Of a stretch of DNA of 64,000 nucleotides, positions 1 to 7,550 are shown one piece after another. The DNA is from Escherichia phage EcSzw-2. The stretch lies in sequence record MH791400.1. One strand, given 5' to 3'. Within the stretch, counting starts at the first letter, position 1. Each line of letters opens with the position of its first letter. The notes under the pieces were generated by a model that searched no databases, was not told the origin of the DNA, and was given only the letters and a program-made list of their open reading frames with translations. The position numbers were made by a program, and so were the translations under genes.

Positions 1-50
1 AACATCCTCTTAAAAGCTCTGTATAGCTCTGTATAGCCTCTTTTAAGCCC
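1..50. repeat. ~50-bp direct repeat, copy 1 (copy 2 at ~3641-3690); contains internal tandem GCTCTGTATA x2
   Basis: aacatcctcttaaaagctctgtatagctctgtatagcctcttttaagcc recurs essentially identically at ~3641-3690. Confidence 0.8.
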
Positions 51-99
51 CTTGTAAGGTAACTATAGCCCAAGTAACTGTAAAGGGCTTTACAGGGCT

Positions 100-240
100 T
101 TATAGGGGCTTTAAAGGGTATGCCAAGTTGACTAACAAGGATTTAACAAGGTCTTAACAATGATTTAACATACCCCTAACAAGGGTAACTATGCAGGAGT
201 TGTTAAGAATTTGTTAAGAAAATGTTAAGGGGGCTAGCAT
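100..240. repeat. array of TAACAAG / CTTAACA heptamers in direct then inverted orientation (candidate protein-binding array)
   Basis: taacaag at ~134,147,175 plus ttaacaa/ttaacat variants; inverted copies tgttaag x3 at ~200-235; far above chance for a 7-mer. Confidence 0.6.
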
Positions 241-719
241 TTACGTAACTTTTAAGCCACTTTTAAGCAACTTTATAGCCCCTATAACATACTTTTANNN
301 AGACAATAACAAGCCCTTTTTAGTAGTTCACAAGGGACTAACGAGATGATAAAGCTTGATACCTTATAAGATTCTTTTAAGGCCATAGAAAGCTCTATAA
401 ATGGCTTTTAAGAGTGGGTTAATATGATTGCTTAAGTTAGGTTGATAAGCTGTTATAGGGCTTTATAGAGCGTTTTAGAGGGTTGCCCTCCCCTTTGGGT
501 TATGGGCTTATATTTAAGTTGATTTGATAAGATGATATAGAGTAAGCTATAGAGTTATTATTTTTAAGGTCTGGTAAGATTCTCTAAGAGTCTGCATAGG
601 GATTGCATAGACGTAAAAAAGCCCCTATGAGATAGATTCTATGAAGGTAATTCATTACCTGAATNAGAAAGGGGCTGTTAAGGTATCTGGGGCTATTTTA
701 GCCCCGTTGCGGCGTCTCG

Positions 720-968
720 TTAGTTATGACCGTCCTTGTCATAGTAAAGAGAAATGATTTTATCGTTCCAATAGTGCCAATGATTACCATCTTTCACCGC
801 CTCTTGGATAGCTGCAATCCAAAAATCCGATTCAGGGTTATAATCCTTGACAATCTGGCTAACAAGGCTTTTCACCATATCAAAAGCACTATCTGTACTG
901 ATAATGTCAAATTTAACATCCAGTGAGTAAAAACCATATTCGTTAACAGTTGCGCGGATAGTTGCCAT
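720..968 (-). CDS. hypothetical early protein (82 aa)
   Basis: ORF directly preceded by conserved promoter/leader cassette ending ...CCTAAACTGGAGAaTCAAAG-ATG. Confidence 0.65.
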   Translation of the reverse strand: MATIRATVNEYGFYSLDVKFDIISTDSAFDMVKSLVSQIVKDYNPESDFWIAAIQEAVKDGNHWHYWNDKIISLYYDKDGHN

Positions 969-1055
969 CTTTGATTCTCCAGTTTAGGATTGATTTGGTA
1001 AAGCTCTTTATCTGGGGCTTATACTATCGAACTATAAACCCCTTGTAAAGCACTT
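969..1055 (-). promoter_or_regulatory. early promoter + conserved leader/RBS cassette, type A (TTTACA-N17-TAGTAT, GGAG RBS)
   Basis: On minus strand: TTTACA (~1044-1049), 17-bp spacer, TAGTAT (~1021-1026), then leader aagccccagataaagag...cctaaactggag; inverted repeat ggggtttata/tataagcccc brackets the -10. Confidence 0.6.
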
Positions 1056-1253
1056 TTAATACATTTTATCGAATAACTGGTTTATTGCAGCAACTGCATG
1101 ATTTTTAAAGTTTAAGTTGTTAGTGTTATCAGAAAACACTACTTCAGTGTTGTAAGTGATTTCTAGTGATACAAACGAACCATTTACATTTAAAGAATAG
1201 GATACACCTTTTAAGCACCACAAGGTAGACAGCTTTTGCATTAAATCTTTCAT
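1056..1253 (-). CDS. hypothetical early protein (65 aa)
   Basis: ORF preceded by type B promoter/leader cassette with GGAG RBS. Confidence 0.6.
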   Translation of the reverse strand: MKDLMQKLSTLWCLKGVSYSLNVNGSFVSLEITYNTEVVFSDNTNNLNFKNHAVAAINQLFDKMY

Positions 1254-1330
1254 CTTGAATCTCCAGTTTAGGAAGTAAGCTTGATTGCTTGATAGATACT
1301 ATAGGGCTTTTAGAAAGTGATTGCAAGCCC
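1254..1330 (-). promoter_or_regulatory. early promoter + leader cassette, type B (TTGCAA-N17-TATAGT)
   Basis: Minus strand: TTGCAA (~1321-1326), 17 bp, TATAGT (~1298-1303), leader ...cttcctaaactggagattcaag-ATG; promoter spacer can form hairpin agggctt/aagccct. Confidence 0.55.
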
Positions 1331-1454
1331 TTTTTAGTCTTATCTATAAAGAATCTTTTAAGTGATTCCTTTTAGATAAAACCCCCTCGAACAAATGTAC
1401 TATTGTCAAGGGGTATCGTCAAGTAATTTTTGAAAGTTTTTTGTAAGTTGTTGA

Positions 1455-1796
1455 TTAACTTATAAAGATTTTTTCAGGCTTGACGTAGTTCATTTTTTGG
1501 CCTTTAAGTAAATCACTCCAGATTAAAGCGGCAATGTGACCATAACCGGATTCACGTAGCGCTTTCATCGTGTTGACTTTTGTTTCAAATCGTGTTGCGT
1601 AGTATTCACTGTTAAGGGTTGTTTTGTTCCCTTCATTGTCTGTATGAATGATTTGCATCACATGAAACGGGCTAACATCCTCTCCGAGATTCCATTGCTC
1701 AAAGTATTTTAAACACTGCATAGGCGACATATTATCACTGACTCGTGTAGACCATGATGAATTTTCTTTATCGGTAATTACGGTTACATGTGCCAT
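1455..1796 (-). CDS. hypothetical early protein (113 aa)
   Basis: ORF with upstream conserved cassette and GGAG RBS. Confidence 0.65.
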   Translation of the reverse strand: MAHVTVITDKENSSWSTRVSDNMSPMQCLKYFEQWNLGEDVSPFHVMQIIHTDNEGNKTTLNSEYYATRFETKVNTMKALRESGYGHIAALIWSDLLKGQKMNYVKPEKIFIS

Positions 1797-1870
1797 CTTT
1801 GAATCTCCAGTTTAGGAAAGCTCTTTATCTGGGGCTTATGGTATCAAGCTTTTAAGCCCCTTGTANTTGT
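1797..1870 (-). promoter_or_regulatory. early promoter + leader cassette, type A variant (ambiguous base at 1866 in the -35 region)
   Basis: Conserved leader aagccccagataaagagctttcctaaactggagattcaa; -10-like TACCAT; hairpin-capable ggggcttat...ataagcccc. Confidence 0.5.
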
Positions 1871-2099
1871 AAATCTCTAAAAATTCATCTTCATTAACAT
1901 TTTCGTAGTATTCTGCGTTTTCGTCTTCACCTTGTAAGACATAGCAGCCCATTCTAGACGATTTCGGGTATTCTTGTCTAGCAATATTGCAAGCTTCTAC
2001 CGCGTTTTGTTTAGTTCCTTCAAAGGATTCTAAAACCCCATAATGGCAATTATTAGCCCCAGAGCATACAGCAAGCATGAGATAGATTGTAGTTAACAT
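1836..2099 (-). CDS. hypothetical protein with N-terminal hydrophobic signal-like segment (87 aa; 3' end reads through the downstream promoter cassette and the ambiguous base)
   Basis: ORF; N-terminus MLTTIYLMLAVCSGANNC is signal-peptide-like; no own cassette, probably co-transcribed with the upstream 185-aa gene. Confidence 0.45.
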   Translation of the reverse strand: MLTTIYLMLAVCSGANNCHYGVLESFEGTKQNAVEACNIARQEYPKSSRMGCYVLQGEDENAEYYENVNEDEFLEIYXYKGLKSLIP

Positions 2100-2162
2100 G
2101 ATTTAAGCCCCTTGCAAGCCCCTATGCGGGGCTTTTTAATGTTGTTAGTGTGATTGTATGGT

Positions 2163-2720
2163 TTACGCTAAAACGTCGTTTACAGTGCTTTCTGTTAAGC
2201 TTTCCTGCATTGCGTCTAGCATGTTGCAATAGATAATTGAACTATCATCAGTATTTTGAATAAAGCTTGCAACTTCTTCAAGTTTTTCATCAACATAGCC
2301 TAAATTTGGATTTTTTAAGTTAGGTACAAAAAACGGTGAATACATAGAGTTAAATTCTGTGATGTAAACCTTTTTAATCCAATCTTTATCAAAAGATTCT
2401 GTAAAGCTTGCGATATCACTCATATTTTCACAAGACCAATCATCTTGCAATTCATATTCTGGAATGTCAAGTTCTAAGATAACAATATTTTGGGTTTTCA
2501 TCTGAAAAGCTGCTGTGATTGTAGCACTATCAAGAGCATTGCGTAAACCTTCATTAGTAATTTCTTCAGCATTCATAGAATCAAGGTCATAGAATTTATT
2601 AACAGGGTAAACGTAAAAACAACCATCACTATCAGAGCAATTCCAAGCGCCTGATGGTTTATCACCGCCATTGATGAGGTTTACAAAGTTTTCTTGAGTA
2701 GTACCGTGAAAGCATTTCAT
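2163..2720 (-). CDS. hypothetical early protein (185 aa)
   Basis: ORF preceded by conserved leader/RBS (promoter part diverged or truncated; n at 2773). Confidence 0.65.
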   Translation of the reverse strand: MKCFHGTTQENFVNLINGGDKPSGAWNCSDSDGCFYVYPVNKFYDLDSMNAEEITNEGLRNALDSATITAAFQMKTQNIVILELDIPEYELQDDWSCENMSDIASFTESFDKDWIKKVYITEFNSMYSPFFVPNLKNPNLGYVDEKLEEVASFIQNTDDSSIIYCNMLDAMQESLTESTVNDVLA

Positions 2721-2775
2721 TTTGAATCTCCAGTTTAGGATTGATTTGGTAAATCTCTTTATCTGGGGCTATNAA
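2721..2775 (-). promoter_or_regulatory. conserved leader/RBS cassette (type A, truncated promoter part)
   Basis: ttgaatctccagtttaggattgatttggtaaatctctttatctggggctat matches the other cassettes. Confidence 0.5.
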
Positions 2776-2849
2776 ATTTGGATTCACTCCGTTCATCTTG
2801 GGTCACCATATCATGTGATAAAATATCTACCCTTCTTAACAGCCTACTT

Positions 2850-3010
2850 AATCTTACTCTCTATATATATATAGTTATATAGTACTATATAGTATCTTAG
2901 TCCCTTAACAGTGAGTCTCTATAGCCCTCTGTATAACCCTTCTATAAAGCCCTATAAGCATCCCTCTTCCAAACCTATACAATCACCTTAACCATCTCTT
3001 CATAGCCCCT
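2850..3010. repeat. phased (~10-11 bp) CTATA(G/A) / TATATAG short repeats in noncoding AT-rich DNA
   Basis: ctatatatatatagttatatagtactatatagtatc...ctctatagccctctgtataacccttctataaagccctataagc; helical-period spacing suggests intrinsic bending. Confidence 0.5.
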
Positions 3011-3349
3011 TAGAAGCCCCTATACCCATCTTAATCTCTATGTCAGAGATAGTACCCTCTATAGGGTGTTCACTAGGTTCTACTAATCCTCTNGTTGTTC
3101 TTAAGAATCAACCTCTTAGGCTTATCCTACAAGGTCTAACACGTTATTAACAAGGTATCTTATAAGCCTGTATTTACCTGTTTTATACAGAATACTATAT
3201 AGATATTTATGCAATTCTTAAAATTTTTATAAAATAGAACTGTCAAGTCATTTTTTAGGGTCTTGAGAGCAACTCAAAAATATCTGTTTAGGATGTATAT
3301 CTGCTTGGTAGCCCTTAACAGCCTTGTAACATACCCTTTGCAAAATTTT

Positions 3350-3600
3350 AAAATATCATTAACAAATTCTTAACAACTCTATCAATCTCTTAACATCTCT
3401 TCAAAGGTCTTAACAGATTCTTAACAGGACTAACAAGGGTGTAACAGTTATTTAACAAGTGCTACATAGTCTTTACAGAATCTTAACAGATGACTAACAA
3501 GAGCTAACAAGTTAATTTTAAAGGGTTATTTTGTTAAGATAATTAACAAGTTCCTAACAAGTGTTTAATCCTTTTAACAAGCTGTTAACATGGTCACTAT
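3350..3600. repeat. dense array of (C)TTAACA(A/G)(G) repeats, ~15 copies, ~11-22 bp spacing
   Basis: tcttaacaactc, tcttaacatctc, gtcttaacagattcttaacaggactaacaagggtgtaacag...tttaacaagtg...gactaacaagagctaacaag...ttaacaagttcctaacaagtg...tttaacaagctgttaacatgg. Confidence 0.7.
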
Positions 3601-3640
3601 CTCTTCTCTTCTCGTTCCCTTAACTTCTCAGTGAATCTCT

Positions 3641-3690
3641 AAACATCCTCTTAAAAGCTCTGTATAGCTCTGTATAGCCTCTTTTAAGCC
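3641..3690. repeat. ~50-bp direct repeat, copy 2 (matches window positions 1-50)
   Basis: aaacatcctcttaaaagctctgtatagctctgtatagcctcttttaagcc. Confidence 0.8.
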
Positions 3691-3935
3691 NTAGTTTTCT
3701 TTGAGAAAATTAGTTTAACTGCAACCGTGGGAAGTTCTTCAATACTTGTAAAAAGCGTTACCTTTTGAGTAACAACCTTGTAACCATTTTTTGCAGCGTA
3801 TGCCGTGAAACGATTAACCGTATAACTATAAGTTTTTGATGTGTTGTCTGACATATGGTACAAATAGGGCTTGCCTAAATTTTGAGATTGTGTTAACAGT
3901 CGGCAAGTATCAGGAACGTTTAAATAATTAAGCAT
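3684..3935 (-). CDS. hypothetical early protein (83 aa; 3' end overlaps repeat copy 2 and ambiguous base 3691)
   Basis: ORF preceded by type B promoter/leader cassette. Confidence 0.55.
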   Translation of the reverse strand: MLNYLNVPDTCRLLTQSQNLGKPYLYHMSDNTSKTYSYTVNRFTAYAAKNGYKVVTQKVTLFTSIEELPTVAVKLIFSKKTXA

Positions 3936-4020
3936 TTAGATTCTCCAGTTTAGGAAGTGGGATTGCTTGCCCGTCTGATAAGTAATTTAAGCTATTTAAA
4001 AACCAGTGTCAATAGATTTT
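3936..4020 (-). promoter_or_regulatory. early promoter + leader cassette, type B (TTGACA-N17-TAAATT)
   Basis: Minus strand TTGACA (~4007-4012), 17 bp, TAAATT (~3984-3989), leader acttatcagacgggcaagcaatcccacttcctaaactggagaatctaa-ATG. Confidence 0.55.
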
Positions 4021-4425
4021 TTAAAGTTCTGCGTAAATTGCATCACAGATATCACGAAAATCATAGCTTGTCAAGTTACGTTGTAACCATGTTGCGAAAA
4101 AATCAGCTATTGCAAAATTTGCATCATACTCAACAGATAACCACACTTTTACAGCAAATCGAAACATTTTCAAGTCAAGTTCTTTATTCATTACTTTTGA
4201 TTTGCCTAACATGTCAACCATTTCATATTGTGCGCCGTCAAGTGTAACACCTGATGCAACATTTGCAAGTGAATTTTTTACGCTTTCAACGTCTAAGATT
4301 GCACCTTGAATCTTTCCGATAATGTTATGCAGTGTTTCGTCTGGTGCTGCTGATGTAATTACGTTGATGCGATTAACGGTCAAACGTGCTTTCAGGATTG
4401 CAGTGTCACGAGTATTCATAGCCAT
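4021..4425 (-). CDS. hypothetical early protein (134 aa)
   Basis: ORF with type A cassette and GGAG RBS upstream. Confidence 0.65.
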   Translation of the reverse strand: MAMNTRDTAILKARLTVNRINVITSAAPDETLHNIIGKIQGAILDVESVKNSLANVASGVTLDGAQYEMVDMLGKSKVMNKELDLKMFRFAVKVWLSVEYDANFAIADFFATWLQRNLTSYDFRDICDAIYAEL

Positions 4426-4510
4426 TTTTAAATCTCCAGTTTAGGGGTTATCGATAAAATCTCTTTATCTGGGGCTATACTAGCAAACTTTATAACCCCA
4501 TGTAANAGAC
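4426..4510 (-). promoter_or_regulatory. early promoter + leader cassette, type A (TTACAT/TTTACA-N17-TAGTAT; n at 4506)
   Basis: Conserved cassette sequence; the -35 lies inside the 3' end of the upstream ORF. Confidence 0.55.
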
Positions 4511-4777
4511 TAAATACAACTTTTTCCCGTTAACAATGATGTAACTTACACCGCTATTGCTGTAAACATCTTGATAGATTCTGCGTAACTTGCCTGAATA
4601 GCGCACTTTCCAAGATGTAGGAATCTTTTTACCGTATCCGGTGGATGTTTTTTGTAAACCTGCTAATTGCCAATCTAAAATGTGTTGTTCTGCTGTTAAC
4701 TCTTCAAAGTTTAATACGCCGTCTACATAGTGCTTTAAAGTAACGTTTAAGGTGTGACCATTATTTGTAGTATACAT
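4490..4777 (-). CDS. hypothetical early protein (95 aa)
   Basis: ORF preceded by type B cassette. Confidence 0.6.
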   Translation of the reverse strand: MYTTNNGHTLNVTLKHYVDGVLNFEELTAEQHILDWQLAGLQKTSTGYGKKIPTSWKVRYSGKLRRIYQDVYSNSGVSYIIVNGKKLYLVXYMGL

Positions 4778-4870
4778 TTTGAATCTCCAGTTTAGGAAGT
4801 GGGCTTGCTTGCCCGTCTGATAAGTAATTTACTTGTTTCCGTTACCAGTTGCAAGCCCTTTTTAGAAATT
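4778..4870 (-). promoter_or_regulatory. early promoter + leader cassette, type B (TTGCAA-N17-TAAATT)
   Basis: ctaaaaagggcttgcaactggtaacggaaacaagtaaattacttatcagacgggcaagcaagcccacttcctaaactggag on the minus strand. Confidence 0.55.
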
Positions 4871-5193
4871 TATTTCCGTTTGCTTATCTCGTGAACAATA
4901 ACAGCGTGATAATCTTTCAAATTACTAATATTTAAAGCATTTAGTAAAGCATTATAATCATCAACTAACTGAAAATCACCGCTTAGAATGTCACTAACCT
5001 GATATGTGTTAGCCTTGAATCTGAAGCCCATCTCTAAACGCTTTAATTGTTCTACGTTTAAACGCTCTAGAAAGGACGTCACAAGGTTATTATTGATTTG
5101 CCTTGTGATTGCATCACTTGCCGCCTGATGCGCTTTATAGGCTTTATACAGTGCTAAAATAGCAATAAATAAGGCAACTCCAGAAATTAGCAT
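4870..5193 (-). CDS. hypothetical membrane protein (107 aa, N-terminal TM helix)
   Basis: ORF; N-terminus MLISGVALFIAILALYKAY is hydrophobic; start overlaps stop of upstream ORF (ATGCTAA), so translationally coupled. Confidence 0.6.
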   Translation of the reverse strand: MLISGVALFIAILALYKAYKAHQAASDAITRQINNNLVTSFLERLNVEQLKRLEMGFRFKANTYQVSDILSGDFQLVDDYNALLNALNISNLKDYHAVIVHEISKRK

Positions 5194-5483
5194 GATGATT
5201 TACCTTTATGAAATAGTTTACCAGTGTGACTAATCTCAAAAGAATCTATCATATCTTTTGTTGATTTAACAGAACTTTTATTTGCATTGTCATAGATATC
5301 TACCTGAAGCAATGGCTTTTTGTATTCTTTACAAAAGTTCCAAATACAGACAACAACTTCTTTACCATTGATTTTTCCGTGATACCATTCTGTTACTTCA
5401 TGAGTACGGCGCATAGATTCTACAAATTTGATATCTTGTAAAAGTTTGCTCAACTTGGAACGTACATTTGCAGCAATAAACAT
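5187..5483 (-). CDS. hypothetical early protein (98 aa)
   Basis: ORF with type A cassette upstream. Confidence 0.65.
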   Translation of the reverse strand: MFIAANVRSKLSKLLQDIKFVESMRRTHEVTEWYHGKINGKEVVVCIWNFCKEYKKPLLQVDIYDNANKSSVKSTKDMIDSFEISHTGKLFHKGKSSC

Positions 5484-5573
5484 TTTAGAATCTCCAGTTT
5501 AGGATTGATTTGGTAAATCTCTTTATCTGGGGCTATNCTTATCAACCTGATAACCCCATGTAAAGCAATTTAT
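5484..5573 (-). promoter_or_regulatory. early promoter + leader cassette, type A (n at 5537)
   Basis: TTTACA-N17-TAAGnA plus conserved leader and GGAG RBS. Confidence 0.5.
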
Positions 5574-6086
5574 TTAGATATCAAAAATATTCATCATTAA
5601 ATCTTTCAAGGCTTCTAAACGTTCCATGACTTCAGATTCTGCGTCTGCGTTGCTTACTTCCTCTTTTAGTCTATCCTCTAAATCGTCGCCGTCGCTATAG
5701 CACCAATCAAAGGCATATCCAAGATAAAAACTATCTAAAACCGTGTTTCCGTTTGCAGCTACAACTTTTGCAGATAGGCTATATTCTGAAGCCTCTAAAT
5801 CCCTTTCTAGTTCTTTCTGTAAGCTGATGTAAGCCTCTCGTGATGGATTTTCCCGGCCTTGTTTTGCATAGTCGCTAGAAAGCTGTTTAAGGCTATAGCG
5901 TAAAGGGATTGCATATTCAAATTCATTACGTTGATAGTTAGGATTCTTAATAGTTACCCCGCCTTGATGGTTGTTTGTAAATTCCCAATCACTGATGTTA
6001 TGGCTTGCTTCATAGCAGTTAACAGCTTCATATATGATAGAGAATTTCTCTTTTACAACTTCAAAGGTAGCGTCTACAGTTTTCAT
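5574..6086 (-). CDS. hypothetical early protein (170 aa)
   Basis: ORF with type A cassette upstream. Confidence 0.65.
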   Translation of the reverse strand: MKTVDATFEVVKEKFSIIYEAVNCYEASHNISDWEFTNNHQGGVTIKNPNYQRNEFEYAIPLRYSLKQLSSDYAKQGRENPSREAYISLQKELERDLEASEYSLSAKVVAANGNTVLDSFYLGYAFDWCYSDGDDLEDRLKEEVSNADAESEVMERLEALKDLMMNIFDI

Positions 6087-6171
6087 TTTGAATCTCCAGT
6101 TTAGGATTGATTGTAAAGCTCTTTATCTGGGGCTTATATTAGCAACTCATAAACCCCATGTAAAGCACTTT
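6087..6171 (-). promoter_or_regulatory. early promoter + leader cassette, type A (TTTACA-N17-TAATAT)
   Basis: Minus strand TTTACA (~6159-6164), 17 bp, TAATAT (~6136-6141), then conserved leader and GGAG RBS. Confidence 0.6.
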
Positions 6172-6429
6172 TTAGATTAAATTTGCAGTTAATGCCAAGT
6201 GCATTTTATAACCTTGTATAGTGTAAACATTGGTTTTACCAATAGTCTTTACACCTTTGAAAAGGTTGTAAGAGTTATGCTTTAAGTTTAATTGCTTGTC
6301 ACACTTTACGCCCCATCTTACAGCAGAATCTTTCCCGTTGTCAATCACTTTTCCGTCTAAATCTTTTGCCAGTAAACGAGCGTTATCACGAGTTTTTGCA
6401 TTAACTACTACGTTTTTGATGATAGCCAT
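6172..6429 (-). CDS. hypothetical early protein (85 aa)
   Basis: ORF with type A cassette upstream. Confidence 0.65.
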   Translation of the reverse strand: MAIIKNVVVNAKTRDNARLLAKDLDGKVIDNGKDSAVRWGVKCDKQLNLKHNSYNLFKGVKTIGKTNVYTIQGYKMHLALTANLI

Positions 6430-6518
6430 TTTTGAATCTCCAGTTTAGGGGTTATTGATAAAATCTCTTTATCTGGGGCTTATACTATCGAACTATAAAC
6501 CCCCTGTAAAGCACTTTA
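6430..6518 (-). promoter_or_regulatory. early promoter + leader cassette, type A (TTTACA-N17-TAGTAT)
   Basis: Near-identical to the cassette at 969-1055. Confidence 0.6.
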
Positions 6519-6899
6519 TTAGCTAATTTTAAAGATAGTCACATAGCCATCACTACCAATCATCTGAGAAACACCAGCTTTCTCGACATTGTAACCCATT
6601 TTATCAAGATGGTAAATTGCATCTTCATAGCCGTAGGCATCACCTTGATAACGTCTCTTCTCACATTTTATCAAGGTTTTACCACGTCCAGCAAGTGCAT
6701 TAATGATAGCTTTATCACCTGATAAACTACCATCTAACATAGTTGCGCGATAATGGTTTATTTTGTTGCCATTTACATCATACTTAAAATTATATGCGTG
6801 AACAACAATTATTTTACCTTTGAATTTTTCATCAAGTGTTTTCTCCAGTACATCGCGGAAGTTTTCTTTATTGATGAATTTAGGCGCACGATATTTCAT
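6519..6899 (-). CDS. hypothetical early protein (126 aa)
   Basis: ORF with type A cassette upstream. Confidence 0.65.
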   Translation of the reverse strand: MKYRAPKFINKENFRDVLEKTLDEKFKGKIIVVHAYNFKYDVNGNKINHYRATMLDGSLSGDKAIINALAGRGKTLIKCEKRRYQGDAYGYEDAIYHLDKMGYNVEKAGVSQMIGSDGYVTIFKIS

Positions 6900-6980
6900 T
6901 TTGAATCTCCAGTTTAGGATTGATTATAAAGCTCTTTATCTGGGGCTTATGGTATCAAGCTTTTAAGCCCCTTGTANGCA
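6900..6980 (-). promoter_or_regulatory. early promoter + leader cassette, type A variant (n at 6977)
   Basis: Same variant as 1797-1870 (ggggcttatggtatcaagcttttaagcccc). Confidence 0.5.
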
Positions 6981-7135
6981 ATAATTTTTATAACTTCTTT
7001 TAGTGTGATGTTTTCGCCATTTGTCAAGGCTAAACATTTGTTACCAGTGCATGACAAGTAACTAAACGAGACTTTACCAGTTTTAGAAAATCCGTCAAGC
7101 CCTTTGTAAGTGATGATAGAGTTTTCTTTTATCAT
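6947..7135 (-). CDS. hypothetical small protein (62 aa; C-terminus reads through the downstream cassette)
   Basis: ORF directly follows the 84-aa ORF without its own cassette; probably co-transcribed. Confidence 0.4.
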   Translation of the reverse strand: MIKENSIITYKGLDGFSKTGKVSFSYLSCTGNKCLALTNGENITLKEVIKIIXYKGLKSLIP

Positions 7136-7146
7136 TCATCAAGCCC

Positions 7147-7401
7147 TTAAACGTCATAATAGTAAATTGCAGTATGTCTAATATGCTTTCTTGTGTGAGT
7201 TGTCAAGTAACAATCTGAATTAATTGACGTGTTTACATATGTATCATAATCTTTCTCTGATATACGTTGCCACACATCACAAATTAGCATATAAAAGCGA
7301 CGATGTTTAGTCTCAGTATTATCTACAATCATTAACTCACGTTGATATAACATTTTGAATCTCCAGTTTAGGAAGTGGTCTTGTTTGCCCGTCTGATGCA
7401 A
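7147..7401 (-). CDS. hypothetical early protein (84 aa), first gene of the early array
   Basis: ORF with type B promoter/leader upstream. Confidence 0.6.
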   Translation of the reverse strand: MHQTGKQDHFLNWRFKMLYQRELMIVDNTETKHRRFYMLICDVWQRISEKDYDTYVNTSINSDCYLTTHTRKHIRHTAIYYYDV

Positions 7402-7460
7402 ATACTAAATAACTTTGTTTTGCAGGTCAAGCAAATTTTTAAAAATATTTTCAGGAATTG
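7402..7460 (-). promoter_or_regulatory. early promoter + leader, type B (TTGACC-N17-TAGTAT)
   Basis: Minus strand: ttgacc tgcaaaacaaagttatt tagtat ttgcatcagacgggcaaacaag... Confidence 0.55.
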
Positions 7461-7550
7461 CCAGAGATGAACGGGCGCACGACTACCACAAAACATAGCA
7501 CAAATCAAGAATTATTTTTCAGTTCTCTACAGATTTTTCTCTTGACTTTT

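What the first reader, a model, noticed from the sequence alone, without database searches (positions are those of the whole stretch)
969..6980. Inverted repeat bracketing the -10 of every type A early promoter: shared operator or leader hairpin
In type A cassettes the spacer begins with GGGGTTTATA and the -10/+1 region ends with TATAAGCCCC, a 10-bp inverted repeat enclosing the -10 hexamer. As DNA this is a dyad operator overlapping the promoter in every copy, a plausible target for one dimeric repressor shutting off all early genes together. The same sequence read on the plus strand forms a hairpin followed by a short T-run, so it could also terminate antisense transcripts.
Basis: seen in the sequence. 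Interest (0 to 1): 0.5.

Follow-up and report, generated by a model that had tools for sequence, protein, structure and literature searches.

The report
Early promoters embedded in RNA hairpins
The inverted repeat around the -10 box is real and conserved across Felix O1-like phages, but its pattern of change fits an RNA stem-loop made by transcripts reading in from the upstream gene, as in the promoter/stem-loop (PeSL) cassettes known from T4-like phages, rather than a repressor operator.

Summary
The window is a Felix O1-like phage (Ounavirinae, Suspvirus), 99.7% identical to EcSzw_1. Its small early genes lie on the minus strand.

**Observation.** All seven intact "type A" cassettes carry a sigma70-like promoter (TTTACA-N17/18-TAnnnT). 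Its -10 box sits inside an 8-10 bp GGGG...CCCC inverted repeat. The arm sequences differ between copies.

**Conservation.** Among 54 unique variants from four genera, 97.9% of stem positions pair. Compensatory changes include GGGG/CCCC to GGTG/CACC in Erwinia phages. Non-Watson-Crick pairs are almost all G·U on the gene-sense strand (44 against 1 A·C).

**Larger structure.** The hairpin is the top of a ~20 bp three-helix rod of about -22 kcal/mol. The rod also pairs the -35 region with leader bases +4 to +14.

**Who carries it.** The predicted start site lies just 3' of the hairpin, so only read-through transcripts from the upstream gene contain the structure.

**Rejected readings.** There is no T-run on either strand, so the antisense-terminator idea fails. 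A shared dimeric operator is disfavoured.

**Best reading.** This is a PeSL-type cassette: stop codon, hairpin with promoter, leader, Shine-Dalgarno site. The RNA structure probably insulates, ends or stabilises the upstream message. The repeated cassettes also mark gene-swap boundaries.

It is a new member of a known kind.

The parts
1000..1056 (-). Type A cassette 1, full RNA rod. H3 AAAGU/GCUUU, H2 CUUUA/UAAAG, 3x3 internal loop, H1 hairpin at 1014-1042 (GGGGTTTATAGTTCGATAGTATAAGCCCC). -35 TTTACA at 1044-1049, -10 TAGTAT at 1021-1026, predicted +1 A at 1013. Stop codon of the upstream gene at 1056-1058.
   Evidence: MFE -21.9 kcal/mol, z -5.26
966..1013 (-). Leader of cassette 1: AGAUAAAGAGCUUUACCAAAUCAAUCCUAAACUGGAG, with SD GGAG at 977-980 and ATG at 966-968 (gene 720-968).
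1831..1860 (-). Type A cassette 2, hairpin GGGGCTTAAAAGCTTGATACCATAAGCCCC (8 perfect pairs). -10 TACCAT at 1838-1843, +1 at 1830, ATG at 1794-1796. The -35 region is partly lost in the assembly gap (N at 1866).
2713..2772 (-). Truncated type A cassette. Only the right arm ATAGCCCC, the leader, the SD and the ATG remain. It is cut at the scaffold junction (N at 2773).
4471..4499 (-). Type A cassette, hairpin GGGGTTATAAAGTTTGCTAGTATAGCCCC (9 pairs, one base shorter on both arms). -10 TAGTAT at 4477-4482, +1 at 4470, ATG at 4423-4425. N at 4506 lies in the -35 region.
5529..5557 (-). Type A cassette, hairpin GGGGTTATCAGGTTGATAAG(N)ATAGCCCC (9 pairs in the gap-free SUSP2 copy). -35 at 5559-5564, +1 at 5528, ATG at 5481-5483.
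6115..6171 (-). Type A cassette, full rod. H1 at 6129-6157 (GGGGTTTATGAGTTGCTAATATAAGCCCC), -35 at 6159-6164, -10 TAATAT at 6136-6141, +1 at 6128, ATG at 6084-6086.
   Evidence: MFE -22.6 kcal/mol, z -4.59
6458..6519 (-). Type A cassette, full rod. H1 at 6475-6503, -35 at 6505-6510, -10 TAGTAT at 6482-6487, +1 at 6474, ATG at 6427-6429.
   Evidence: MFE -21.3 kcal/mol, z -5.51
6942..6971 (-). Type A cassette, hairpin GGGGCTTAAAAGCTTGATACCATAAGCCCC. -10 TACCAT at 6949-6954, +1 at 6941, ATG at 6897-6899. N at 6977 lies in the -35 region.
689..705 (-). Hairpin GGGGCTAAAATAGCCCC followed by AGATACC, lying after the stop codon of the last gene of the cluster (720-968), with no -35 at promoter distance. 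This shows the hairpin goes with the 3' end of a gene, not only with a promoter.
1303..1331 (-). Type C cassette. Hairpin AGGGCTT...AAGCCCT spans the -35 (TTGCAA) and the spacer, ending just before the -10 TATAGT. Same leader/SD motif at 1260.
3959..4012 (-). Type B cassette. TTGACA-N17-TAAATT, followed in the transcribed leader by GGGCAAGCAATCCC (short stem). Leader/SD at 3942.
4802..4858 (-). Type B cassette with the 8-bp inverted repeat GGGCTTGC...GCAAGCCC bracketing the whole promoter (TTGCAA-N17-TAAATT).
7377..7430 (-). Type B cassette, the first of the cluster in transcription order. TTGACC-N17-TAGTAT, then GGGCAAACAAGACC in the leader.

Best explanation
Each type A element is a dual-coded regulatory cassette of the PeSL (promoter-early stem-loop) type.

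**As DNA (inferred).** It is a host-sigma70 early promoter, TTTACA-N17/18-TAnnnT, with +1 at the A of AGAUAAAG.

**As sense-strand RNA (shown in silico).** It is made only when RNA polymerase reads in from the upstream gene. The ~57-62 nt from that gene's stop codon to leader position +14 fold into a three-helix rod:
- H1, the GGGG...CCCC hairpin that encloses the -10;
- a 3x3 internal loop;
- H2, the -35 bases CUUUA paired with leader UAAAG;
- H3, AAAGU paired with GCUUU.

The structure, its conservation, its compensatory changes and its sense-strand polarity are all shown here by computation.

**Function (inferred).**
- The rod acts on the upstream message. It marks and protects that message's 3' end as a barrier to 3'-5' exonucleases.
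- That end would be produced either by attenuation of read-through or by endonuclease cutting in or just after the rod.
- This makes every small early gene an insulated unit: stop codon, hairpin with promoter, leader, Shine-Dalgarno site.
- The overlap with the -10 is compaction of two signals, not operator control.

**Recombination (shown by comparison).** Because the cassette is repeated about ten times per genome, it also serves as a substrate for recombination that swaps genes between cassettes.
For: **Promoter**
- -35 TTTACA in 110 of 111 unique cassettes.
- -10 hexamer TAnnnT in 53 of 54 hairpin variants, although the middle bases vary. TA is invariant inside an otherwise variable loop.
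- The consensus scan calls 1049-1021, 6164-6136 and 6510-6482 on the minus strand.

**H1 hairpin (54 unique variants, four genera)**
- 97.9% of cells pair, against 84.0 +/- 1.0 in shuffles (0 of 500) and at most 56% when slid.
- Position 9 shows all six standard pair types.
- Position 3 is G-C in 46 variants and U-A in the 8 Erwinia-phage variants.
- Positions 7 and 8 switch between U-A and A-U through a paired one-base deletion.

**Full rod**
- RNAalifold predicts it independently.
- 98.9% of cells pair, against 94.9 +/- 0.4 shuffled and at most 59.8% slid. The covariation score is 0.140 against 0.065, reached by 0 of 500 shuffles.
- H3 pair L5-R11: GC 83, UA 17, GU 2, mismatches 9.
- 104 of 111 cassettes give at least 10 flank-to-flank pairs in the MFE structure, with a mean of -22.0 kcal/mol.

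**Polarity**
- G·U 44 against A·C 1 in H1. U·G in 97 of 111 cassettes at L6-R10.
- Sense strand -21.3 to -22.6 kcal/mol (z -4.6 to -5.5), antisense -13.2 to -15.4 (z -2.6 to -3.4).

**Link to gene 3' ends**
- The upstream stop codon lies 13-16 nt before H1 and abuts H3.
- A hairpin without a -35 at promoter distance follows the last gene of the cluster.

**Variable position relative to the promoter**
- Among 190 unique cassettes, the hairpin spans the -10 in 103.
- It lies downstream of the -10 in at least 39, inside the spacer in 1, and across the -35 in 2.
- Annotators of phage XTG1 labelled the leader hairpins as terminators.

**Modular shuffling**
- Homology blocks between the window and SUSP2 or PC79-13 end at cassettes.
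- Orthologous genes carry different, sometimes chimeric, hairpins.

**Precedent**
- phi1/RB49 PeSLs have the same architecture, and one of their stem-loops cut downstream lacZ expression (PMC2839356).
- RB49 copies with the hairpin spanning the -10 were seen directly.
Against: - There are no transcript-end data for any Ounavirinae phage, so the start site and any 3' end are predictions.
- No U-tract follows H1 or the rod, and the terminator scan finds nothing at any cassette. Classical intrinsic termination is therefore unlikely, and 'attenuation' rests on one lacZ test in another phage family.
- H2 and the outer parts of H3 never vary, so they carry no covariation evidence.
- The cassettes are paralogous copies. 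Some co-variation of the two arms could reflect shared descent. The shuffle controls do not remove relatedness, although the slide controls do.
- Symmetric changes between genera would also fit a co-evolving palindromic operator.
- A sense-strand G·T bias could also arise from a single-stranded DNA role.
Confidence: 0.6

Rival explanations
1. RNase III processing site, a specific version of the RNA reading. The ~20 bp rod with its 3x3 internal loop would be cut once by host RNase III on the 3' side of the loop (AGA). The upstream mRNA would keep a protective 3' hairpin. The downstream RNA would begin at about the same nucleotide as the promoter's own transcript.
For: - The rod has 19-20 pairs interrupted by an internal loop.
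- E. coli RNase III substrates typically span two helical turns, and internal loops restrict cutting to one strand, leaving 3' hairpins that protect against exonucleases (PMC1540722).
- The extension beyond H1 is conserved and partly covarying. It is not needed for a simple exonuclease barrier.
Against: - The four pairs next to the loop are all G-C, and G-C pairs in the proximal box are reported antideterminants of binding or cleavage (PMC1540722).
- The lower stem is short and AU-rich.
- No cleavage data exist.
- Type B cassettes have no comparable rod.
Confidence: 0.25
2. One reading: a DNA operator. A dimeric phage repressor binds the dyad over the -10 of all type A promoters and shuts early genes off together.
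For: - The dyad overlaps the -10 and +1 in every type A copy, and GGGG/CCCC sit at fixed positions.
- The symmetric GGTG/CACC change in Erwinia phages would also fit co-evolution with a repressor.
Against: - The inner 4-5 bp of the arms differ among copies in one genome, and the half-site distance changes by 2 bp.
- The fixed mismatches are all G·T on one strand.
- The complementarity runs on for about 60 nt.
- Type B, type C and in-spacer cassettes use other sequences, spacings and positions.
- A hairpin with no -35 at promoter distance ends the cluster.
- No candidate repressor was identified.
Confidence: 0.07
3. Primarily a recombination element. The GGGG...CCCC palindrome and its flanking repeats would exist as hotspots (single-stranded DNA hairpin or patch of homology) for cassette exchange and mini-circle formation, with no role for the RNA structure.
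For: - Homology breakpoints and gene replacements coincide with cassettes.
- Chimeric hairpins such as GGGGTTTATAGTTCGATACCATAAGCCCC occur.
- PeSL mini-circles, with crossovers inside the loop, are documented in RB49 (PMC2839356).
Against: - Homologous recombination needs identity, not intramolecular complementarity.
- It does not explain compensatory changes or the sense-strand G·U bias.
- It may well be a secondary consequence rather than a rival.
Confidence: 0.1
4. Terminator for antisense (plus-strand) transcripts.
For: A hairpin can also be drawn on the plus strand, at -13 to -15 kcal/mol for the whole rod.
Against: - The plus-strand version has C·A mismatches and is about 7 kcal/mol weaker.
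- It is followed by TTGTAAAG, not a T-run, and the scan calls no terminator-like site.
- There are no plus-strand genes or strong plus-strand promoters here.
Confidence: 0.02

Closest known systems
PeSL (promoter-early stem-loop) cassettes of T4-like phages phi1/RB49, PST/T4 and nt-1/KVP40 (Arbiol et al. 2010, PMC2839356; Comeau et al. 2014, PMC4122927)
   Same: - Both are repeated intergenic modules made of the upstream stop codon in AT-rich sequence, a sigma70-type -35/-10, a G-run...C-run stem-loop with G-T pairs, a conserved leader, a Shine-Dalgarno site and a start codon.
- In both, the stem-loop most often lies between the boxes or overlaps the -10.
- Both are clustered among small genes of unknown function, and indels and replacements between close relatives sit next to the cassettes.
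- RB49 copies such as TTGACACCGGATCGGGGATATAGCATAATATCCCC have the same layout.
   Different: - The phage lineage differs: Ounavirinae, not Straboviridae. No sequence homology was shown.
- The -35 is TTTACA rather than TTGACA.
- Here the hairpin is the top of a longer three-helix rod that also buries the -35 and leader +4 to +14. I did not find this described in the PeSL papers.
- Terminator activity, promoter activity and mini-circles have been shown only for phi1/RB49.
Felix O1 '57 bp direct repeats' (Whichard et al. 2010, PMC3185647)
   Same: It is the same element. The published repeat CTTTACATGGGGCTTAAAAGTCTGTAAAGTAAGCCCCAGATAAAGAGCTTTACCACT is a type A cassette, and the published 39-bp repeat is a type B promoter.
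   Different: The paper lists them only as direct repeats. It assigns no promoter, inverted repeat or RNA structure, and it states that the control of transcription in this phage is unknown.
RNase III processing signals of phage T7 early mRNA (R1.1 type)
   Same: - Both are intercistronic.
- Both are about two helical turns long, with upper and lower stems separated by an internal loop.
- A single cut would leave a 3' hairpin that stabilises the upstream message (PMC1540722).
   Different: - No cleavage is shown here.
- G-C pairs flank the loop, which is a reported antideterminant.
- T7 sites are not built around a host promoter.
Intrinsic (Rho-independent) terminators, including terminator-promoter pairs elsewhere in this phage (for example upstream of the gene at 11494-12045)
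   Same: Both have a GC-clamped stem-loop directly after a stop codon. Annotators of XTG1 labelled the sister type B hairpins as terminators.
   Different: No U-tract follows the cassette hairpins. The same genome uses canonical hairpin-plus-T-run terminators at other sites.
Palindromic operators overlapping promoters (lac O1, lambda OR, LexA boxes)
   Same: Both are dyads lying over the -10 and +1.
   Different: Operators keep their sequence, not their complementarity. The variable arms, sense-strand G·U bias and 60-nt extent seen here are not operator properties.

Membership tests
PeSL (promoter-early stem-loop) cassette | sigma70-like -35 and -10 boxes about 17 bp apart | tested here: met
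   TTTACA-N17/18-TAnnnT. -35 present in 110 of 111 cassettes and TAnnnT in 53 of 54 hairpin variants.
PeSL (promoter-early stem-loop) cassette | Stable stem-loop with a G-run and a C-run (G-T pairs allowed) lying within or overlapping the promoter | tested here: met
   GGGG...CCCC stem of 8-10 bp at -10.6 to -13.5 kcal/mol, spanning the -10. T·G at stem position 5. The same layout was seen in RB49.
PeSL (promoter-early stem-loop) cassette | Begins at the stop codon of the upstream gene in AT-rich sequence and ends with a Shine-Dalgarno site and start codon | tested here: met
   Stop codon 13-16 nt upstream of H1. GGAG lies 6-7 nt before the ATG.
PeSL (promoter-early stem-loop) cassette | Repeated among small non-essential genes, with indels and replacements between close relatives bounded by the cassettes | tested here: met
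   12 cassettes within 6.4 kb of 60-185 aa ORFs. Homology blocks with SUSP2 and PC79-13 end at cassettes.
PeSL (promoter-early stem-loop) cassette | The stem-loop reduces downstream expression (terminator/attenuator) and the cassette drives strong transcription | not testable with these tools
   Needs reporter or transcript-end experiments. No Ounavirinae transcript-end data were found.
PeSL (promoter-early stem-loop) cassette | Recombination between cassettes yields excised mini-circles | not testable with these tools
   Needs PCR or sequencing of infected cells or virions.
Intrinsic terminator | GC-rich hairpin followed directly by a U/T-run | tested here: not met
   No terminator-like site at any cassette on either strand. 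The hairpin tails are AGATAAAG on the sense strand and TTGTAAAG on the antisense strand.
Palindromic repressor operator | Conserved half-site sequence at a fixed spacing in all regulated promoters | tested here: not met
   The arms differ among copies within a genome. Hairpin length is 28-30 nt in type A, 17-21 nt in type B and 16-18 nt in the in-spacer form.
Palindromic repressor operator | A cognate DNA-binding protein | not tested
   No candidate was sought systematically. It would need EMSA or pulldown experiments.
E. coli RNase III substrate | About two turns of (quasi-)continuous double helix, with an internal loop at the cut site | tested here: met
   19-20 predicted pairs in three stacked helices with a 3x3 loop, compared with the criteria in PMC1540722.
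E. coli RNase III substrate | No inhibitory G-C pairs in the proximal box, and actual cleavage | tested here: inconclusive
   GGGG/CCCC abuts the loop on the upper-stem side, while the lower stem is AU-rich. Box positions cannot be assigned without a mapped cut.
Rfam RNA families | Match to a curated covariance model | tested here: not met
   Only one chance-level hit in window 1-8000, at E 0.92.

The most novel reading that the evidence does not exclude
The whole type A cassette is a processing site laid over a promoter.
- Read-through RNA folds into the ~20 bp rod and is cut, by RNase III or another host endonuclease, on the 3' side of the internal loop.
- That position is also the promoter's +1.
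- Primary and processed mRNAs of each early gene would then share one 5' end and leader.
- Every upstream message would end in the GGGG...CCCC hairpin.

This would be a new way for a phage using only host enzymes to make tandem genes behave as independent, equalised units.
Probability: 0.25. Interest if true: 0.65.

Novelty: new member of a known kind. Interest (0 to 1): 0.45.

Why it matters
**Biology.** How Felix O1-like phages organise early transcription is unknown. The Felix O1 genome paper says so and lists these elements only as direct repeats.
- Reading them as dual-coded cassettes gives a concrete, testable map of about ten early promoters per genome.
- It gives a structural rationale for message insulation and stability.
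- It offers a mechanism for the rapid swapping of small early genes, which are often anti-host or anti-defence genes, across a subfamily widely used for phage therapy and typing.

**Generality.** PeSL-type architecture would then not be confined to T4-like phages, which points to convergent design.

**Practical use.** These repeats break short-read assemblies. The Ns and the mis-scaffolding in this very sequence show it.

Tried and rejected
- **RegB lead.** Phage phiEa104 annotates a 'T4 endoribonuclease RegB', which would have explained the invariant GGAG in every leader as a shut-off target. The protein and its window homologue (11494-12045, minus strand) match only an SLT-like transglycosylase domain and phrog_600, not RegB. 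Dropped.
- **First IMG/VR scan.** A 14-base leader pattern returned mostly chance hits. A gapped 22-base pattern was needed.
- **MAFFT alignment of all hairpins (A1).** It misplaces the paired one-base deletion of the GGGGTTAT family, so undercounts pairing at 94.1%. I re-counted from the outer ends and on a gap-free subset.
- **Rfam.** No family matched.
- **Literature.** Searches for Felix O1 or Ounavirinae promoters, stem-loops, start sites or PeSL found no functional description. One search was too broad to be useful.
- **Canonical terminator and cruciform readings.** There is no T-run. The 9-12 nt loops make cruciform extrusion unattractive; this second point is inference.
- **A second promoter upstream of the hairpin.** This would have put the hairpin in its own leader. 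The sequence upstream of AAAGTRCTTTACA is not conserved between copies. Rejected.
- **Survey artefact.** In one search the class 'no promoter >=8' arose because my 70-nt slice cut off the -35 of type B cassettes.

Full report
**Identity and context**

The window is a Felix O1-like myovirus (Ounavirinae, Suspvirus). Bases 900-7000 are 99.7% identical to the UNVERIFIED record Escherichia phage EcSzw_1 and about 93% identical to SUSP2 and PC79-13.

Genes between 720 and about 7400 are small (60-185 aa) and lie on the minus strand. All Ns in the window fall in the first 7 kb. They are assembly-gap placeholders shared with EcSzw_1.

Window 2774-3691 is out of order. Judged against SUSP2, the true order is 2774-3690, then 1-2772, then 3692 onward. 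Three Ns (1866, 4506, 6977) each stand for about 11 missing bases of a -35 region.

**The observation**

Twelve cassettes share the leader CCTAAACTGGAGA upstream of a start codon.

| Cassette type | Copies | Layout |
|---|---|---|
| Type A, intact | 7 | AAAGTRC-TTTACA-N-[GGGG...CCCC]-AGATAAAGAG...CTGGAG-N6-7-ATG |
| Type A, truncated | 1 | cut at a scaffold junction |
| Type B | 3 | hairpin-like element downstream of the -10 |
| Type C | 1 | hairpin across the -35 and spacer |

The bracketed segment of type A is 28-30 nt. Its outer 8-10 bases are complementary and it contains the -10 hexamer.

The other copies carry GGGGTTTATG, GGGGCTTA/TAAGCCCC or GGGGTTAT(A/C)/(T/G)ATAGCCCC. The plus-strand 'T-run' is TTGTAAAG, and the consensus scan finds no terminator-like site at any cassette on either strand. 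The same scan does call TTTACA-17-TAGTAT and TTTACA-17-TAATAT as promoter-like.

**Is the promoter reading sound?**

The conserved block starts at AAAGTRCTTTACA, and nothing further upstream is shared between copies. Across relatives:
- the -35 is TTTACA in 110 of 111 unique cassettes;
- the hexamer 17-18 bp downstream is TAnnnT in 53 of 54 hairpin variants, while its middle bases vary: TAGTAT, TAATAT, TACCAT, TAAGAT, TATCTT, TAAAGT, TAATCT and others.

This is the signature of a working -10 box. The A that follows CCCC lies 7-8 nt after the hexamer and is the likely +1. If so, the cassette's own transcript starts just 3' of the inverted repeat (inference).

**Conservation and covariation of the repeat**

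The cassette occurs in 287 phage records at 1,444 places, all Ounavirinae, including Erwinia phages. I collected copies from annotated records and from IMG/VR contigs.

For 54 unique hairpins, pairing counted from the outer ends gave:
- 97.9% of cells in a 9-bp stem pair, against 84.0 +/- 1.0 after shuffling the 3' letters (0 of 500) and at most 56% when the partner is slid;
- position 3 is G-C in enterobacterial phages and U-A in all eight Erwinia-phage variants (GGTG...CACC);
- position 5 is U·G in 35, C-G in 17 and U-A in 1;
- positions 7 and 8 switch between U-A and A-U through a one-base deletion on both arms;
- position 9, a spacer base paired with -10 position -8, shows all six standard pair types.

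The built-in counter on a MAFFT alignment that misaligns one family still gave 94.1% paired.

**Polarity**

Non-Watson-Crick pairs are G·T 44 against A·C 1 in the hairpin. All the frequent ones are G·U when read on the gene-sense (minus) strand. Sense hairpins fold on average 2 kcal/mol better than their complements. For the GGGGTTTATA copies the values are -13.5 against -7.1 kcal/mol.

**A larger structure**

Folding from the upstream stop codon to leader position +14 gives a three-helix rod:
- H3, AAAGU paired with GCUUU;
- a 1x1 mismatch;
- H2, CUUUA (the -35 bases) paired with UAAAG (leader +4 to +8);
- a 3x3 internal loop, CAN opposite AGA;
- H1, the GGGG...CCCC hairpin.

The three gap-free window copies give -21.3 to -22.6 kcal/mol with z -4.6 to -5.5. 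Their complements give -13.2 to -15.4 with z -2.6 to -3.4. In 104 of 111 unique cassettes the MFE structure holds at least 10 flank-to-flank pairs.

RNAalifold on 45 diverse gap-free copies predicts the same 19-pair structure. On that alignment:
- 98.9% of cells pair, against 94.9 +/- 0.4 shuffled and at most 59.8% slid;
- the covariation score is 0.140 against 0.065, reached by 0 of 500 shuffles.

In H3, one pair is G-C in 83, U-A in 17, G·U in 2 and mismatched in 9. The neighbouring pair is U·G in 97 of 111, again valid only on the sense strand. H2 never varies, so it is neutral evidence.

**What this says about function**

The structure is selected on one strand. It starts at the stop codon of the upstream gene, 13-16 nt before H1. 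It ends around the next promoter's +1 to +14, so it can exist only in read-through RNA.

The last gene of the cluster is followed by a similar hairpin, GGGGCTAAAATAGCCCC then AGATACC at 689-705, with no -35 at promoter distance.

In other early cassettes of the same phages a G-run...C-run hairpin sits elsewhere relative to the promoter. Of 190 unique cassettes:

| Hairpin position | Cassettes |
|---|---|
| Spans the -10 | 103 |
| In the transcribed leader | at least 39 |
| Inside the spacer | 1 |
| Across the -35 | 2 |
| No stem of 6 bp or more | 45 |

What stays constant is a hairpin between a stop codon and the next Shine-Dalgarno site, not a fixed relation to the promoter.

I therefore read it as an intercistronic RNA element that insulates, ends or stabilises the upstream message, overlaid on a promoter for compactness. 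There is no U-tract, so classical intrinsic termination is unlikely. An exonuclease barrier after attenuation or endonucleolytic cutting is the most economical mechanism (inference).

The rod's geometry matches single-cut RNase III sites: about two helical turns and an internal loop, leaving a protective 3' hairpin (PMC1540722). However, the G-C pairs next to the loop are reported antideterminants. I keep RNase III as a sub-hypothesis at about 0.25.

**Operator hypothesis**

This is not excluded experimentally but is disfavoured:
- half-site sequences and spacing differ among copies in one genome;
- mismatches are strand-biased;
- complementarity spans about 60 nt;
- sister cassettes use different hairpins at different positions.

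**Comparison with known systems**

The architecture is that of PeSLs in phi1/RB49: stop codon in AT-rich DNA, sigma70 boxes, a GGGG...CCCC stem-loop with G-T pairs most often between the boxes or overlapping the -10, then a Shine-Dalgarno site and start codon. One phi1 stem-loop lowered downstream lacZ expression as strongly as rrnB T1, and recombination between PeSLs shuffles genes (PMC2839356; PMC4122927).

I confirmed on RB49 itself that some copies have the hairpin spanning the -10, for example GGGGATATAGCATAATATCCCC.

As in PeSL-rich regions, homology blocks between the window and SUSP2 or PC79-13 break at cassettes:
- the gene at 990-1248 is replaced;
- SUSP2 carries an extra gene between two cassettes;
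- 3692-3931 is replaced in PC79-13.

Orthologous genes also carry different or chimeric hairpins.

The Felix O1 genome paper listed a type A cassette only as a '57 bp direct repeat' and stated that the control of transcription is unknown (PMC3185647). No paper in the searchable library describes its function.

**Verdict**

- The operator and antisense-terminator interpretations are not supported.
- The hairpin idea is right, but on the sense strand and in read-through RNA rather than in the cassette's own leader.
- This is a new member of a known kind: PeSL-type cassettes in Ounavirinae. The extended rod that also buries the -35 and the start of the leader is an added feature I did not find described.
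- Interest is moderate, at 0.45.

Noticed in passing
window 1-720 and 2774-3690 (contiguous in the SUSP2 order): About 1.6 kb of non-coding DNA between the late (plus-strand) genes and the early cluster is packed with short direct repeats at 10-11, 20 and 31 bp spacing: CTTAACA(R), TAACAAGG, CTTTTAAG, CTTTATAG. Related records (ekra, PC79-13) begin here and annotate repeat_region features. It could be a genome end, an origin or an iteron-like protein-binding array.
   Followed up: partly
window 298-300, 665, 1866, 2773, 3093, 3691, 4506, 5537, 6977; segment 2774-3691; 1-50 = 3643-3690: The sequence is a scaffold with N placeholders at collapsed repeats, shared with the UNVERIFIED record EcSzw_1. 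One segment is misplaced and about 48 bp is duplicated. The breaks fall at the repeated cassettes.
   Followed up: yes
window 689-705 (minus strand): The hairpin GGGGCTAAAATAGCCCC followed by AGATACC lies directly after the last gene of the early cluster, with no -35 at promoter distance and no T-run.
   Followed up: partly
window 4802-4858 and 1303-1331 (minus strand): Other cassette types also wrap promoters in inverted repeats. GGGCTTGC...GCAAGCCC brackets an entire TTGCAA-N17-TAAATT promoter, and AGGGCTT...AAGCCCT spans a -35 and its spacer.
   Followed up: partly
window ~1390-1425 (minus strand): A promoter-like TTGACG-N17-TACATT is overlapped by a reversed-polarity repeat, CCCCTTGA...TCGAGGGG, in the 120-nt gap between gene 1455-1796 and the type C cassette. 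No gene follows it, so it may be a decayed cassette. The repeat was read by eye.
   Followed up: no
window 2104-2140: GCCCCGCATAGGGGC is preceded by an A-run on the sense strand, so it is a canonical terminator-like site only on the plus strand. It lies upstream of gene 1836-2099, which lacks the common leader.
   Followed up: no
L156 (RB49, NC_005066 100000-149999), upstream of small ORFs: RB49 PeSL leaders end in ...GGAGAATCAAA(A)ATG, nearly the same as CTGGAGATTCAAAATG here. At least one RB49 PeSL also has flanking complementarity (AAAGUGU...ACACUUU) around its hairpin. This could be convergence or exchange.
   Followed up: no
L154 2984-3496 (phiEa104 P104_00070) and window 11494-12045 (minus strand): The GenBank annotation 'predicted T4 endoribonuclease RegB' is not supported. 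Both proteins hit only an SLT transglycosylase domain weakly, plus phrog_600. The window protein starts with a hydrophobic, signal-peptide-like N-terminus.
   Followed up: yes
GU169904.1 'Staphylococcus phage SA1' 129147-136983: A record labelled as a Staphylococcus phage carries about 8 kb of Felix O1-like early-region DNA at 81% identity. The record is probably chimeric or contaminated.
   Followed up: no
type A cassettes, e.g. window 996-1058: The hairpin is flanked by a direct repeat of a near-palindrome, AAAG(T/A)GCTTTAC, once covering the -35 and once in the leader. This is why the two flanks can pair. It also resembles a palindromic insert with duplicated flanks.
   Followed up: partly
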